A DNA stretch of 64,000 nucleotides from Rhina ancylostomus (Eukaryota), in contig JARFYF010000054.1 in the NCBI GenBank assembly GCA_030265395.1, forward strand, positions 15,157,360 through 15,221,359. Reading direction: 5' to 3'. This document shows, piece by piece, positions 18,001-54,000 of this stretch. Each line of letters starts with the position of its first letter. The first letter of the stretch is position 1. A program made the position numbers.

Positions 18001-21000
18001 CCTCTATATCTACTCCCCAGCAACTTAAACCTATGGCCTCTCGTGGCCACCATTTCAGCCCTGGGGAGAAGTCTCTGACTATCTACCCAATCAATACCTC
18101 TCATCAACATCAATACCTCTTCTCAATAACAGAGAAAAGCCTGGAAAATTATTTCTTTTTTGCCAGGAAAATGGCCTTAGTCAGACTTACAAGTAGGCAA
18201 GTTACAAACTTAAATTGTATAGGGAGCTACTTAAGTGTGGCTTTCATTTTTTCTATAGTTCTAAGTTAGCAACGTTACAGCCAGTTGTGTAGGTTCTCCA
18301 TTTCCATTATGAATGGAGGCAAGTAGGCAACATGACGGCAGAGTGCATAATTCACCATTCATGTGATCACAAAAGGAGTATTATTTAAGTCCTTAGTCAT
18401 GCACGACAAAAACATTTTTCCTTGCTTTCAAAGATATATTTGAACTGACAAAAAAAAATCAGTGATCAATCACATGCACATTTCTGCATTACAAAGAGCC
18501 AATTATTTTATATTCTAGAGGTAATTTTCCACCACTGTGAGCTTCTAATTAAGAAATCATACATTTACTTGGCTGCTTTCTAATTAACCTGACTACCCGC
18601 TTAAGAACAATTACCTCCTAATTGACTCTGCAATTAGACCTTACGATCTTAAAGGGACACAAAGGTAAACAATGCTTAATTTTTAGCAGGAGATTAACGT
18701 ACATGATATGAGGACAATTTATCTTTATCCTTCAACCTATTTTGAATACTGCAGGAGGGATGTCCTGCTGTATTTATGGAGGACTTTGATGAGACTGGCC
18801 AAACCTTGACTATCGGGTGCAGATTTGACTTCCTAACTGAGAAAGGATGTTTTTGCTTTGAAGGGTGTGCGGCAAATGTTCACCAGACTAATTACTGCAA
18901 TGCATGACTGACATCATGATAAAAGATCAAATTAGCTAGGTTAGAATTTAGAACAGTGAGAGAGAACCTCATAGAAACCTGTAAATTTTATAGAAACTAG
19001 AAAATTGTAACTGTACACACATGTGGGAAGCACATTCCTGATGGTGGGAGAGTTCAAAAGCAGGAGTCTAAGGATAAACGGTAAACCAGGTATGACCACA
19101 ATTAGGAGAAATCTCTTCACCCAGAGAGTGGTGAACCTGTAAAAAATCCTCTATTGGAGAAGGCAGTTGAAACCAAATCATTAAATATATTCAAGGAGTT
19201 AGATCTAGTTCTTAGGGCTAAAGTTCAAGGGATATGGGTAGATAACAGGAACAGGCTGGTGAATTGGGATGATCAGCCTTGATCACGTTGAATGGCTTAC
19301 TACTGCTAATTTCTATGCTTCTTCTAGTGAGTAATATCACTGGAAATCTTCTGACTTACAAAAACCTCGATTAGCACATCTTTAATAAGCCATTTTAAGT
19401 CTTCCAAATTGAAATATAAACTGATATTATGAGGATTAAAGAGTTAATTAATCATGATTGTGTGTTCTTGCTTATTAAATCAGAAATACTGACATTGTAA
19501 ACCGAGCATTTCCTCCTCTCCTTCCTTTGCTGTTTTAGAGTGACTTCGCTGTCAGAATGTATAGCAGCTGGATTTTCCATTTTATGGCAAAATAATGGTA
19601 TCTGTCACTAACCTTAAATGAAGTCATCTACAAAGATCTACTTATCTCTAAAGTGTGTAGTTCCCCTTTCCTGATGCAAGTTCCTGCCAGGTGTCAATTT
19701 AACAAGACCCCTGTTGTCCAGCAACTGTAATATGATTAAGGTAGTGAGGAGCCAATCACATTGAAGGGCAAGCAATGACTCATACAGCAAACTAGTAAAA
19801 TTAAGTTCTTAGCTAATACTTTAAACATTTTATAGAGCACAAATAAAGATTGGCTACAAGGGATTGAGGTAGAAGCTAAAATATGATATTAAAAATATTT
19901 TTAACAAGTATTTTTAGGGAATTATATTCCACATACATAAAATGAATTTACGTAGAGCCAGAAGGTTTGCTAAGATATAATTGTGGCTAGAAATACGAAT
20001 TAATGTCATCTATACCTCACAAAACATTTTCAGGATATTTTACAGCAAAACAATTAAAGAAAAGATATGCAAATACCCAAATCTCTTCGGATTACCAATT
20101 TATCTCGACTACCTTGGAGAAGGCTGCAAAACAGCACTAGCCTGCAAGAAGAGCTCTGAATCACCAACAGCGATTTTAGGATCAGACTAAACAATACAAA
20201 GAAATACTTAAATCGTTGCCAATTTCAAGATGTAATGACAGCGAAGATTACCACTGTAATGATGGTGAAACTGTCAAAGTATTGGCCAATTTATAGTTTA
20301 CAAGTTCCTATAAGTAAGGCAGTTGCCATGGCTTTTCTTCCCTTGGTGATAGAATTTGTAATCACAGATAAGAAGCAAGCTTCCTGAATATTTCAGATTT
20401 AAACCTGTGTGCCTGTAGCAGACACTCTGCAGGTAGCTCATTTACCTTTCACCACTTTGAATATCACAGTATTATTTAATGTTTTGGGGAAATTGGGATC
20501 TAAAATCAAAAGTTTCCTTGTCACACATAACACTGAAAGATGAATCACAGTGAGAAACCCAAGCTCAAACAAGCAGATTTAATGGACCAGCATTACAATA
20601 TGTAAAACCCTGATTTTACTTACAAGGAAGAGAGAAGTCCCATCATAGTGGTATTGCATTGCATGACTATAAAAATATTCTATGGAAGATCAGACTAAAT
20701 GACTTTGCATGCAATTCTTAATTCTATGAAACAGTTTTGACCACTTTTTTGCAGAGGCCAGATGTTGCCTTTCAGTACATGCATGTCATTGGGAAAACAT
20801 CCTGAGTTATTCTCAGTAAACAGGAAACCTGAGTCAGCTGACTTTTCTCTTAGCTGAGCAAAGAGCATTTCAAAGTGTCAGAGAAACAAAGATGCTGAAA
20901 TCCAGATGAAAAACATGATGATGCTGGAGGAACTCAGCAGGCCAGGCAGCATCTGTGGAGAAAAGCAGGGGGTCAATGTTTCAGGTCAGGACCCTTCTTC

Positions 21001-51000: not shown

Positions 51001-54000
51001 TTGATATTGTTTATAGGGACAAACTACAGTCTATGAAATTCACAAGATGTGGTAATTTTATCCCATGACAATCACTAGATTTATTAGCAGACTTCCAAAC
51101 ACTTATTCTTGCTCTATTAATTAAAAATAAAATTCAAGAACACTCATTTTGGTTATTCCAGATCTTGAAAAGCTGCACCAGCGGCAGCCATTTGCATCTC
51201 CTAAGTGACATTATCTGTTGCAAACTCTCTTTGTATTTACAGTTTCCACCACAAAAAAAAAATTCAAATTGACCAAGTCCCTACTTGACCAAGGAATAAT
51301 CACAAAGCCCCAAAGTCTGGTGCTTGCCGACCAACACTGGATCCTTGTTGACCAATGCCCCATCTTGACAATTCTCATCCTTGTTTTCAAATCCTCCTGT
51401 GGTCTTGCCCCCATCTCTGTAATATCATCAGCTCATCCATCACTGGTGGCCAAGGCTTCAGGTGCCAAAGCACAAAGCTCCAGAATTCCATTACCAAACC
51501 TCTCTGCCACTTGACCTCTTTATCCTTATTTAAATTATTCTTTAAAAATTCTCTCTTTCATCAAGCTTTTGGTCATTTGCCCTAATGCATACTTTTATGT
51601 TCAGTAATGTTCTTGCGAAACATATTTGGCCGCATGAAAGAAGGCACGTAAATGGAGTTTGCTCTTGTTCAATTTTGTAACATTTCATTTTGAACAAAGA
51701 ACAACATCTCATCACAGGCACACTTGATGCTGCTGATAGGAGCTTCCTGTATGCAAATTCGCTACTTTCCCATATTGTAGCAGTGAAGCACTTTTGTGAT
51801 GAACCTAGCTTGTGGAAGGTGCTATATTACTGCAAGTTTCTTTCTATCATGACCACAGGATTTCATGCAGTTGCAAACAAGTATGAAGCACAAGGCTTTG
51901 CTGCATGGTTGCTAAGAATAATAGCTTAACATCCCCAATAAAAAAATGGATGAACATCAAAAACTTGAGTACATATGTTCCAGTGTAGTGCTGAAGGAAT
52001 ACTACACTGCCAAGAGGTGTCATTTTTTTTGAATGAGTCACTAAATTGAGATCCTAGGACATTATTTTGCAGAATAGGGTAGTCTTGTTCAGTGTTCTTG
52101 CTGTTCACAAATTGACAGGCACAATTTTGGGGTTACAACACCAATTGCACTTCTGATAATGTTTCATTGGCTGCAAAGCATTTGGGATGTCCGGCAGTCA
52201 CAAATGGTACCATGCAAGTCCTGGTCTTTTCTTTCTCTCACACTACCTGTAGAGTTTTCAATGCTCGATCTGCGTATAAGATTCCAGCCGTTTCATCGAG
52301 AATAGCAGAAACTTCTTTTGGAAGCCTTATAGCTGGAAATCTCTTTGAAAAATCTGCAGATGTTAATGTCGTCATGGGGACTTTGTTGTTAACCAATGTT
52401 GACTTCATGCATTGAAAATCTGGGTCCTCTTCTTGGCCTAGAACCAATAACCCTGTTTGCCTGCAAATAAACAAAGTTAATCACATTATTGTAGAATTAC
52501 TCATTGATACTTTTTACTCTATTCCCCACCAGTTGCTTTCTCTCCCTTTCTCTTCCCAGGAGGCATCAGTGTTTGCTGGAGAACAAGACCATAGTCATTC
52601 ACGGGTACCCAACTCCAGTGGTAACAATGGAGACACAGGAGACTGCAGATAGTGGAATCTGGAGCAACAAACAATCTGCTGGAAGAACTCAGTGGCTTGA
52701 GCAGCATCTGTGGGAGGAAAGGAATTGTTGCCATTTCAGGTCGAGATCCTGATGCAAGGTTTCGACCTGAAACATTGACGAGTCCTGATGAAGGGTTCTG
52801 ACCCAAACCATTGACAATTCCTTTCTTCCCACAGATGGTGCTCAAACCACTGAGTTCCTCCAGCAGATTGTTTGTTGCTCCAGCAGTAACAAGTTATGTT
52901 TATGGCTCCGTAACAAGTTCCTGTAACCTACTCAATTGGATCCCCAGCCAAGGTGATCCAATTCTCATCCAGTGTTGTCTTGCCCTTCTAGCAGAGGTTT
53001 CACACAAGACCTCAAGGGGGGAAACCCTAGTAGAGTTACCCCATCCAATCCAGATGCAAATTTCATGGCCCCATCAATGTAATTCACATAACAGCCTAGG
53101 CTAAGGGATAGAACCTGGGTTCAGTCAAAGCCAAAACACTGCAGATGCTGAAAATACAAAACAGATCCAGAAAGTGACAGCATCTGTAGAAATGAAAAAG
53201 AGTTCATGCTTCAGGTGGATGACTTTTTAAAAATCAGAATTAATGACAGGTCATCGATCCAAAATATTAACTTTATTTCTCTCACCACAGATGCTACCCA
53301 TTGTGCTGTCTATAATCTTTACCTTATTTCTGCACAGCTCAGCCATATGCTATTTTACCTAGCTATAGATCAGGGAAGTCCAATGATCTGCTCCTGAACT
53401 GGGTCATATACCATGACTTATTGATTTAGTAATATTTCTGGTGAAGAACTGCCAAGATTGAATCTTTGCCTTGTTAAAATTACAACACCAGAGAAGCTTC
53501 TCTCTGGCTCTTGGGTATATAGCCAATGGCAATGGAACATTTTATCACAGTGGGAAGAAAAATATATTCGGATATCTACCCTGCTCTTTAAAGTAGATTT
53601 ATATTGATGGTGCTATGAGCAATTCCCTGACACAGCATCCATCTCTCCCTCTGTGAAGAGGTCAGAGCAGAAGCAGGAAGGTGGTAAGATGTAATATATA
53701 AACCATCCAGCCAGATATTTGGCAGAAAGATTCCTGGTCTTGAGAAAATGTTGGGAAGCAGAGAGTAGAAGGAGATAGCAAAAAGGTACAAACAGCAAAT
53801 TGTCACATGAAATGGCCAGAGACCACAGAAGGACTGGTTAGGAGGTTTACGTGAAAGCTCAGTGATAATGTTATTTTAATTACATTTCAGACTTACGCCA
53901 CATTGTGACGTAGAACTAGAACATACAATAAATGTCCCTTAATGTGGGAAACAGTCTAACATTTTGAATTTGGATTATAATAAATTTCAAGGCAAAACAA

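What the first reader, a model, noticed from the sequence alone, without database searches (positions are those of the whole stretch)
20865..52892. Strand-polarised TG (left) / CA (right) discordance in target-site duplications of Penelope-derived insertions
Seen: three independent insertions have TSD copies that differ at one dinucleotide in the same direction. gcatttcaaagTGtca (20865) vs gcacttcaaagCAtca (22234); ctggTGtcttttaa (46628) vs ctggCAtcttttaa (46809); ctccagTGgtaacaa (52613) vs ctccagCAgtaacaa (52878). Inference: each target held a CpG. In target-primed reverse transcription with 3' overhangs, the left copy inherits the old top strand and the right copy the old bottom strand. Deamination of (methyl)C on those single-stranded overhangs would give exactly left TG / right CA, whatever the element orientation. 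This suggests insertion-coupled deamination and/or a preference for CpG-containing targets in a CpG-poor genome. Caveat: n=3, and independent later CpG decay gives this polarity with probability 1/8 among discordant pairs.
[Added by the scan's program, not by the reader: the finding's places include an assembly gap (unread letters, written N; its length is only estimated) at 21056 to 22011, 22798 to 22807, 23057 to 23072, 31881 to 31910, 36210 to 36236, 36532 to 36541. Whether the letters on both sides are continuous or in frame is not known: test that first.]
Basis: partly seen in the sequence, partly recalled or inferred. Interest (0 to 1): 0.7.

Follow-up and report, generated by a model that had tools for sequence, protein, structure and literature searches.

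The report
Mismatched flanking duplications of Penelope-type retroposons
Three small Penelope-type mobile elements in a cartilaginous-fish-like genome each have flanking duplications that differ at one former CpG in the same direction; this fits damage to exposed DNA during insertion, but three cases cannot separate that from ordinary CpG decay.

Summary
All three pairs sit at the stated coordinates, directly against element ends defined independently by alignment. They match 13/16, 12/14 and 13/15, and each differs at one dinucleotide, TG on the left and CA on the right.

The elements are short non-coding inverted-repeat retroposons with Penelope-like architecture. Each has an inverted, 5'-truncated copy beside a full unit, and a 29-36 nt tail at one end only. 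Rfam found no hammerhead and the window holds no RT/endonuclease ORF (PMC8557442, PMC11167929).

An ancestral CpG is the most parsimonious reading, and the strand logic is sound. It is already published for LINE-1 with APOBEC3A (PMC4003774).

Polarity alone gives p = 1/8 one-sided, 1/4 two-sided. Other signals lean towards an insertion-coupled process. All 6 CpG copies have decayed, although E1's own arm keeps CpGs. Three CpGs were seen where 0.30 were expected (p = 0.0035). All 5 independent TSD differences are C>T on the primer strand.

Against it, the change is CpG-specific (6/6 versus 2/23 other cytosines) and fits no deaminase motif.

My estimate is about 0.5 for ordinary CpG decay with chance polarity and about 0.3 for insertion-coupled deamination.

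The parts
20865..20880 (.). E1 left copy of the target-site duplication (TG at 20876-20877; extra T at 20868)
   Evidence: 13 of 16 identical to 22234-22249, chance 7e-6
20881..22233 (-). E1, an inverted-repeat element of a second subfamily. The full unit with a 29-nt tail (20881-20909) is on the minus strand at the left. The inverted short-ended arm is at the right. Assembly gap 21056-22011 lies inside, so true length and content are unknown.
   Evidence: arms 119 of 131 identical
22234..22249 (.). E1 right copy of the duplication (CA at 22245-22246)
46628..46641 (.). E2 left copy of the duplication (TG at 46632-46633)
   Evidence: 12 of 14, chance 6e-6
46642..46808 (+). E2, a 167-nt inverted-repeat element. 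The inverted short-ended arm is 46642-46721. The unit is 46721-46774, followed by a tail of about 34 nt to 46808.
46809..46822 (.). E2 right copy of the duplication (CA at 46813-46814). Its first base may belong to the tail.
52613..52627 (.). E3 left copy of the duplication (TG at 52619-52620)
   Evidence: 13 of 15, chance 2e-6
52628..52877 (-). E3, a 250-nt inverted-repeat element. The tail is 52628-52663 and the unit runs to about 52758 on the minus strand. The inverted short-ended arm is 52782-52877 on the plus strand.
52878..52892 (.). E3 right copy of the duplication (CA at 52884-52885)
11010..11108 (-). Solo 5'-truncated unit of the same family with a (shortened) tail. Its duplication is cacaggctt at 11001-11009 and 11109-11117, perfect 9 of 9. 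Alternatively it is 11 of 12 from 10998 and 11106, with left G / right A.
41464..41713 (+). Solo short-ended unit. Its last 51 nt are written twice, on both sides of the 100-N gap 41563-41662. The only duplication is a weak 7-nt aagacac (41457 and 41717), with CA in both copies.
   Evidence: (D3)

Best explanation
Three independent insertions of a short, non-coding, Penelope-type retroposon family landed by target-primed reverse transcription at sites that each held one methylated CpG. Staggered nicks duplicated 13-16 bp of target. Afterwards each copy of the CpG decayed on its own by ordinary 5-methylcytosine deamination. In all three pairs the left copy happened to lose the top-strand C (giving TG) and the right copy the bottom-strand C (giving CA).

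Shown: the elements, their ends, the duplications, the differences and their CpG-specificity.

Inferred: the ancestral CG, the timing of the changes, and that the shared polarity is coincidence.
For: - The duplications are real and lie against independently defined ends.
- The changes are confined to the CpG. On the strands that served as primers, 6 of 6 CpG cytosines changed against 2 of 23 other cytosines (Fisher 6e-5). This is what methylation-driven decay gives.
- The window is at CpG equilibrium (o/e 0.19), and the elements themselves are at 0.25 (15 CG in 1012 nt).
- The insertions are not new. The arms of one element differ at 12 of 131 (E1), 4 of 64 (E3, well-aligned end) and 2 of 28 (E2) positions. 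This is compatible with 1 of 39 non-CpG differences in the three duplications (P = 0.20 at 7.5% divergence).
- In E1, two arm CpGs are CG in one arm and TG in the other, so CpG decay since insertion is substantial.
- Polarity alone is only p = 1/8 one-sided, 1/4 two-sided. The pattern was picked out after the fact.
- Chance direct repeats show no bias (8 against 8).
- Solo 41470 has CA/CA, not TG/CA.
- From recalled rate constants (no call): spontaneous deamination of 5-methylcytosine in single strands is about 1e-9 per second. That is far too slow to convert both overhangs during one insertion.
Against: - No pair keeps a CG in either copy. With per-copy divergence 0.035 and a CpG loss rate 10-30 times the average (assumed values), all six decayed has probability 0.0007-0.075, and three (TG,CA) pairs 1e-5 to 1e-3. 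Even with complete decay it is 1/64.
- E1's right arm still keeps 4 CpGs, while both copies of its duplication CpG are gone.
- Three CpGs in 42 dinucleotide positions were seen where 0.30 are expected (Poisson p = 0.0035; 0.0057 with the fourth pair and 0.009 with the fifth). Decay does not explain this.
- The two remaining single differences (E1 position 4, T/C; solo 11009, G/A) also have the primer-strand C>T polarity. That makes 5 of 5 independent events (one-sided 1/32). The 12-nt reading of the solo pair is only marginally better than the perfect 9-nt one (score 19).
Confidence: 0.5

Rival explanations
1. Insertion-coupled deamination. During target-primed reverse transcription, the two 3' overhangs that become the duplication are single-stranded: left top strand and right bottom strand. 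Their 5-methylcytosines are converted to T. Fill-in copies the T, so the insertion is born with TG on the left and CA on the right. Uracils made from unmethylated C would be removed by uracil glycosylase and would break the intermediate. Only the methyl-CpG change would then survive, which could explain the CpG-specificity.
For: - 3 of 3 CpG pairs and 5 of 5 independent differences have the predicted polarity.
- All 6 CpG copies are changed and none is left as CG, although the other duplication positions are nearly intact (1 of 39) and E1's arm keeps CpGs.
- The inverted-repeat build, with both unit 3' ends facing outward, implies that both target 3' ends primed synthesis.
- The same model is in print for LINE-1. 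One C>T was seen in a 5' duplication, and G>A is predicted for the 3' copy (PMC4003774, passages and Fig. 4 legend read). There, edits were visible only when uracil glycosylase was inhibited.
Against: - n = 3 and the pattern was found post hoc.
- It needs near-complete conversion on both overhangs. Spontaneous rates are orders of magnitude too low (recalled), so an enzyme is required.
- The bases before the 8 changed cytosines are G,G,G,A,A,C,A,G. None is T (the APOBEC3A/1 type context), and only 3 of 8 fit AID's WRC (read).
- 21 of 23 other exposed cytosines are untouched.
- It does not explain why all three targets held a CpG.
- Solo 41470 shows CA in both copies; this is uninformative if its target had no CpG.
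- My searches found no natural genome-wide case in print.
Confidence: 0.3
2. A lasting post-insertion asymmetry set by the element's two-fold symmetry. Because the element is an inverted repeat, the left top strand and the right bottom strand are equivalent as seen from the element. Any outward-acting process could bias which strand of each flanking CpG deaminates over evolutionary time. Candidates are transcription running out of both arms, hairpin extrusion at replication, or spreading of methylation.
For: - All three discordant pairs flank inverted-repeat copies.
- The two solo copies show no CpG discordance.
- E3 folds as a long hairpin. Its only Rfam similarity is a sub-threshold match to a long miRNA-precursor hairpin (37.9 bits against a cut-off of 100).
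Against: - No evidence of outward transcription.
- Known transcription-associated asymmetries are small (recalled). By my reasoning, non-template-strand exposure would favour the opposite polarity.
- Nothing in the window tests this.
Confidence: 0.1
3. Artefact or misreading. The differences are assembly or haplotype choices at polymorphic CpG sites, or the repeats are not duplications of one target. For E1, the gap could hide two separate insertions.
For: - The assembly is a draft: 19 N runs and unmerged duplicated contig ends at two 100-N gaps (D3 and D19).
- E1 spans a 956-N gap.
- Palindromic Penelope-type insertions are known to trouble assemblies (PMC8557442, passage read).
Against: - E2 and E3 are sequenced through without N.
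- The duplication matches are far beyond chance.
- Allele choice would not change the argument about which mutations occurred.
Confidence: 0.05

Closest known systems
Penelope-like elements (Penelope/Poseidon-type) and their non-autonomous derivatives
   Same: - An inverted 5'-truncated copy abuts a full unit.
- A tail of about 30-40 bp is present at one end only, which means two alternative 3' ends. PMC8557442 (passages) describes this. PMC11167929 (abstract and passages) attributes the tail to two internal reverse-transcription start sites.
- Such structures cause assembly trouble.
- The duplications vary in length (9-16 bp here).
- Hammerhead-like core words (CTGATGA ... GAAAC around a GGGT/ACCC stem) occur in some copies.
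- Non-autonomous derivatives are reported in a chondrichthyan (bioRxiv 10.64898/2026.07.22.740005, passages read).
   Different: - No reverse transcriptase or GIY-YIG ORF in the window (0 of 25 ORFs scanned matched one).
- No Rfam hammerhead even at E <= 10. PMC4209133 says the minimal Penelope ribozymes lack helix III, so standard models may miss them.
- The elements here are dispersed single insertions, not tandem arrays like retrozymes.
- The family name in Repbase/Dfam could not be looked up.
APOBEC3A deamination of transiently single-stranded DNA during LINE-1 insertion (Richardson et al. 2014, PMC4003774)
   Same: Same geometry and same prediction: C>T in the 5' duplication copy and G>A in the 3' copy, giving inexact duplications.
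   Different: - That work used cultured human cells with over-expressed enzyme and inhibited uracil glycosylase.
- It saw one event, in a TCA context, on one side only.
- Here the setting is a natural genome and a Penelope-type element, with both sides changed in every case, at CpG only, and with no TC context.
Ordinary methyl-CpG decay in vertebrate genomes
   Same: - CpG-specific C>T / G>A transitions.
- A strongly CpG-depleted genome (o/e 0.19).
- Elements near equilibrium (o/e 0.25).
   Different: Decay predicts random polarity and a mix of intact, half-decayed and concordant pairs. Here 3 of 3 are fully decayed with one polarity.

Membership tests
Penelope-like element (non-autonomous derivative) | ORF with Penelope-type reverse transcriptase and GIY-YIG endonuclease (autonomous copies) | tested here: not met
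   Pfam scans of 17 ORFs and 8 ORFs found no RT or GIY-YIG. This is expected for a non-coding derivative, but it leaves no link to an autonomous partner.
Penelope-like element (non-autonomous derivative) | Inverted 5'-truncated copy directly upstream of a full unit, forming terminal inverted repeats | tested here: met
   E1, E2 and E3. Described in PMC8557442 (passage read).
Penelope-like element (non-autonomous derivative) | 30-40 bp tail at one end only, giving two alternative 3' ends | tested here: met
   - Four arms (E1, E2, E3, solo 41470) have the short end ...gtttgttg, or ...gtatttt in E1.
- The same end plus 29-36 nt occurs in E1, E2 and E3, and shortened in solo 11009.
- PMC11167929 (abstract and passages read).
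Penelope-like element (non-autonomous derivative) | Hammerhead ribozyme motif in the repeat | tested here: inconclusive
   No Rfam hit at the gathering score or at E <= 10 on two copies. Core words are visible in the sequence, but several copies read CTGATGC. Minimal Penelope hammerheads lack helix III (PMC4209133).
Penelope-like element (non-autonomous derivative) | Sequence relationship to the pseudo-LTR of a named autonomous Penelope-like element | not testable with these tools
   No repeat library and no eukaryotic genome collection were available. The core words were not found in the paper library.
Insertion-coupled ssDNA deamination of duplications (LINE-1/APOBEC3A model) | C>T in the copy that keeps the old top strand, G>A in the copy that keeps the old bottom strand | tested here: met
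   3 of 3 CpG pairs plus 2 of 2 single differences. n is small and the reading is post hoc.
Insertion-coupled ssDNA deamination of duplications (LINE-1/APOBEC3A model) | Sequence context of a known ssDNA deaminase (TC for APOBEC3A/1, WRC for AID) | tested here: not met
   0 of 8 changed cytosines follow T and 3 of 8 fit WRC (read). The motif definitions are recalled.
Insertion-coupled ssDNA deamination of duplications (LINE-1/APOBEC3A model) | The empty site carries C:G, and the change is present from the moment of insertion | not testable with these tools
   No related genome or population data could be reached.
Ordinary post-insertion methyl-CpG decay | Changes confined to CpG | tested here: met
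   6 of 6 CpG cytosines against 2 of 23 others.
Ordinary post-insertion methyl-CpG decay | Random polarity and a mixture of intact, half-decayed and concordant pairs | tested here: inconclusive
   3 of 3 pairs are fully decayed with one polarity, and 0 of 3 retain a CG. The probability is 1/64 at best under this model, but n = 3.

The most novel reading that the evidence does not exclude
In this cartilaginous-fish-like genome, Penelope-type target-primed insertion routinely converts 5-methylcytosine to thymine on both single-stranded primer overhangs. Every insertion into a methylated CpG would then be born with TG/CA-mismatched duplications. The machinery may also favour CpG-containing, tail-like targets. 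That would be the first natural, genome-recorded footprint of single-strand exposure during retrotransposition. It would also be a methylation-specific mutational cost of insertion.
Probability: 0.25. Interest if true: 0.7.

Novelty: new member of a known kind. Interest (0 to 1): 0.4.

Why it matters
If the polarity holds genome-wide, mismatched duplications would be a fossil record of which target strands were single-stranded during Penelope-type insertion. The mechanism of these elements is still largely unknown. The mismatches would also show that retroelement insertion mutates methylated CpGs in the germline of a non-mammal. The test is simple: count TG/CA against CA/TG pairs, and use DNA transposons as a mirror-image control. 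If the ratio is 1:1, the three cases are ordinary CpG decay. What then remains is a clean description of a Penelope-derived inverted-repeat family with its two alternative 3' ends.

Tried and rejected
- **Rfam.** The whole window at the gathering score gave 0 matches. Two copies at E <= 10 gave no hammerhead. The only notable hit was a sub-threshold long-hairpin match to MIR1031 (37.9 bits against 100), which I take as hairpin shape only.
- **Pfam.** 17 + 8 ORFs gave no transposon protein.
- **More duplication pairs.** nhmmer with a profile of 8 arms found about 10 older, diverged relatives. None of the 7 tested has a flanking repeat above noise (best 5-8 nt), so n stays at 4 clear pairs plus 1 weak pair.
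- **Blind scan for double-mismatch direct repeats.** Mostly chance. The pairs near 19579/20037 and 20180/20688 flank nothing recognisable.
- **The 20-of-22 repeat at 44555/47069 (left TT, right CC).** It looked like a further polarity-consistent duplication. The interval holds a host DAO-domain exon and no element ends, so I rejected it as a duplication.
- **Genome-contig scan with a 22-nt family word.** One hit, in a GC-rich Bryobacteraceae MAG contig. It is plainly bacterial and a chance match.
- **Family core words in the paper library.** 0 papers.
- **Similarity of the duplications to parts of the element itself** (9 nt for E3, 7 nt for E1, 8 of 9 for E2). By my own hand estimate, about 0.08 such 9-mers are expected by chance, so this is not used as evidence.
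- **TG or CA as the ancestral state.** Rejected because it needs two adjacent transitions in one copy, three times over.
- **Misincorporation opposite 5-methylcytosine at fill-in.** Rejected by reasoning: after replication it would give CG/CA or TG/CG daughters, not TG/CA.

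
Full report
**1. The observation**

The three pairs are in the window exactly as quoted. They match 13 of 16, 12 of 14 and 13 of 15. The chance of such a match at a fixed place is 7e-6, 6e-6 and 2e-6. In each pair the only double difference is TG on the left against CA on the right. E1 has one more difference (left T, right C at its fourth base).

The window has 38.6% G+C and a CpG observed/expected ratio of 0.19. CG makes up 440 of 62038 dinucleotides.

**2. The assembly gap**

The 956-N run 21056-22011 lies inside E1. I did not try to fill it or look it up, so continuity across it is not established. Two things support one insertion:
- The sequence left of the gap is the inverted copy of the sequence right of it. 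One search gives 119 of 131 aligned bases identical with 15 gap columns. One search gives 83% over 137 columns.
- The 13-of-16 repeat lies immediately outside both ends.

PMC8557442 (passage read) notes that such inverted Penelope structures often break assemblies. The other N runs named in the finding lie outside the three elements and their duplications.

**3. What the elements are**

The core word CTGAGTTCCTCCAGC occurs 14 times with up to 3 mismatches, against 1.67 expected. Alignment of the arms and an nhmmer profile define one unit of about 100 nt with two alternative 3' ends:
- a short end (...cagcagattgtttgttg; ...cacagtatttt in the E1 subfamily);
- the same end extended by a tail of 29-36 nt.

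E1, E2 and E3 each consist of an inverted, 5'-truncated, short-ended copy joined to a full unit that carries the tail. Both 3' ends therefore point outward. Two further copies are solo units:
- 11010-11108, with a tail and a perfect 9-nt duplication, or 11 of 12 with left G / right A;
- 41464-41713, short-ended, with only a weak 7-nt duplication.

This is the architecture given for Penelope-like elements. They have an inverted 5'-truncated copy next to the unit and a 30-40 bp tail at one end only (PMC8557442, passages). The tail is explained by two internal start sites of reverse transcription (PMC11167929, abstract and passages).

The label 'Penelope-derived' is therefore reasonable but not proven:
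- Rfam finds no hammerhead at the gathering score or at E <= 10.
- Several copies read CTGATGC where the ribozyme core needs CTGATGA.
- None of 25 ORFs scanned has a reverse transcriptase or GIY-YIG domain.

PMC4209133 (passages) says that Penelope hammerheads are minimal and lack helix III. That may explain the Rfam blank.

**4. Setting**

ORF 715-2145 is the last large exon of unconventional myosin-XVIIIa. The best hit is 68% identical over 97% of the query to the zebra shark protein. A DAO-domain exon lies at 45309-45554 on the minus strand. The window therefore comes from a cartilaginous-fish-like genome, and E2 lies close to a host gene's exon.

**5. Is the ancestral state CpG, and is the strand logic right?**

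TG against CA differs at both bases. From CG, each copy needs one transition at a hypermutable site. From TG or CA, one copy needs two adjacent transitions, three times over. CG is therefore the only economical ancestor (inference).

The outward-facing 3' ends imply that the top strand of the left flank and the bottom strand of the right flank were the primers. The left copy therefore keeps the old top strand and the right copy the old bottom strand.

The same geometry and prediction are already in print for LINE-1: C>T in the 5' copy and G>A in the 3' copy (PMC4003774, Results passages and Fig. 4 legend read). There, one such C>T was seen, in a TCA context, with over-expressed APOBEC3A and inhibited uracil glycosylase.

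**6. How strong is the pattern?**

Polarity alone is 3 of 3, which is 1/8 one-sided and 1/4 two-sided. A blind scan of the window found 460 direct repeats with one internal double mismatch. TG/CA and CA/TG occurred 8 times each, so there is no background bias.

Other features make pure coincidence less comfortable.

(a) Target CpG content. Three CpGs were seen in 42 dinucleotide positions where 0.30 are expected (p = 0.0035). With the fourth pair p = 0.0057, and with the fifth p = 0.009.

(b) Completeness of decay. All six CpG copies have decayed and none survives as CG. The arms of single elements differ at 12 of 131, 4 of 64 and 2 of 28 positions. This is compatible with 1 of 39 non-CpG differences in the duplications.
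- At a per-copy divergence of 0.035 and an assumed CpG loss rate 10-30 times the average, all six decayed has probability 0.0007-0.075.
- Under the same assumptions, three (TG,CA) pairs have probability 1e-5 to 1e-3.
- With complete decay the figure is 1/64.
- E1's right arm still holds 4 CpGs.

(c) The two single differences in the four clear pairs also read as C>T on the primer strand. That makes 5 of 5 independent events (1/32 one-sided).

These figures are post hoc, rest on assumed rates, and come from one window chosen because it looked odd.

**7. Against an insertion-coupled deaminase**

- The change is CpG-specific: 6 of 6 CpG cytosines against 2 of 23 other cytosines on the exposed strands (Fisher 6e-5).
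- None of the 8 changed cytosines follows T, and 3 of 8 fit WRC (read; motif definitions recalled).
- Spontaneous deamination of single-stranded 5-methylcytosine is far too slow for near-complete conversion during one insertion (recalled rate constants).

One way round the specificity problem: uracils from unmethylated C would be excised and would break the intermediate, as PMC4003774 argues. Only thymines from 5-methylcytosine would then survive. That still demands very high efficiency at the methylated sites. It also leaves the CpG enrichment of the targets unexplained.

Solo 41470 has CA in both copies of its weak duplication. That is either uninformative or a counter-example.

**8. Verdict**

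- Ordinary methyl-CpG decay with coincidental polarity remains the most likely account (about 0.5).
- Insertion-coupled deamination is a live alternative (about 0.3), and the window's own numbers lean towards it more than the bare 1/8 suggests.
- A lasting asymmetry tied to the element's two-fold symmetry (about 0.1) and artefact (about 0.05) are minor.

**9. Novelty**

My searches of the paper library found the mechanism only in PMC4003774, and no genome-wide test of duplication polarity. PMC12809410 (passages read) reports LINE-1 endonuclease cutting next to T-G mismatches. That is a different enzyme and a different geometry.

The decisive test is a genome-wide count, with DNA-transposon duplications as a mirror control and orthologous empty sites. 

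Noticed in passing
window 46628-46637 and 41714-41726: The E2 left duplication and the flank next to the short end of solo 41470 share an exact 10-mer (ctggtgtctt on the plus strand at E2; its reverse complement aagacaccag at 41717-41726). It sits 3-4 nt from the same element end. It resembles the family's own tail end (cctgtgtctcc, 7 of 10). By my hand estimate the chance is about 1e-3. It could reflect a preference of the insertion machinery for tail-like targets, as PMC11167929 reports for Penelope endonuclease.
   Followed up: partly
window 715-2145 (+): A 476-codon open frame with no Pfam match is the last large exon of unconventional myosin-XVIIIa. It is 68% identical over 97% of its length to the zebra shark protein.
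   Followed up: yes
window 45309-45554 (-): An 81-codon open frame matches the FAD-dependent oxidoreductase (DAO) domain (E = 5.5e-8, 33.2 bits against a cut-off of 27.9). It is probably an exon of a host gene, with E2 about 1 kb away.
   Followed up: partly
window 10517-10545 / 10646-10674 and 41512-41562 / 41663-41713: Two 100-N gaps are flanked by the same sequence on both sides (97% and 100% identical, D19 and D3). These look like unmerged overlapping contig ends, so the gaps probably stand for no missing sequence.
   Followed up: partly
window 8346-8405, 15759-15838, 27019-27088, 28011-28066, 28942-29005, 29274-29334, 42503-42586, 49586-49612, 53177-53308: Older, diverged relatives of the same element superfamily (nhmmer E from 4e-12 to 0.3). 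They include a pair of inverted tail-bearing arms about 1 kb apart (27975-29045) and a small inverted-repeat copy at 53133-53325. None has a recognisable duplication.
   Followed up: partly
window 44555-44576 and 47069-47090: A direct repeat matching 20 of 22, 2.5 kb apart, differs only by TT (left) against CC (right). Similarity does not extend beyond it, and the interval holds a host exon, so it is not a transposon duplication. Its origin is unexplained.
   Followed up: partly
window 42688-42821 and 43227-43358: An inverted repeat of 135 nt (86% identical) encloses about 400 bp and is unrelated to the Penelope-type family. It is possibly a fold-back or DNA-transposon relic.
   Followed up: no
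window 11432-11785, 14778-15427, 17931-18086, 33554-33867, 50825-51000, 56835-57172: Another interspersed repeat family, 66-76% identical between copies and of unknown class. The ORFs I scanned inside it had no Pfam match.
   Followed up: no
window 36544-36620: An (ACAGAG)n microsatellite lies directly after the N run 36532-36541 (D2).
   Followed up: no
window 52673-52869 (-): E3 as a whole gives a sub-threshold Rfam match to a long plant miRNA-precursor hairpin (MIR1031, 37.9 bits against 100). This reflects only that the inverted repeat folds into a long hairpin.
   Followed up: partly
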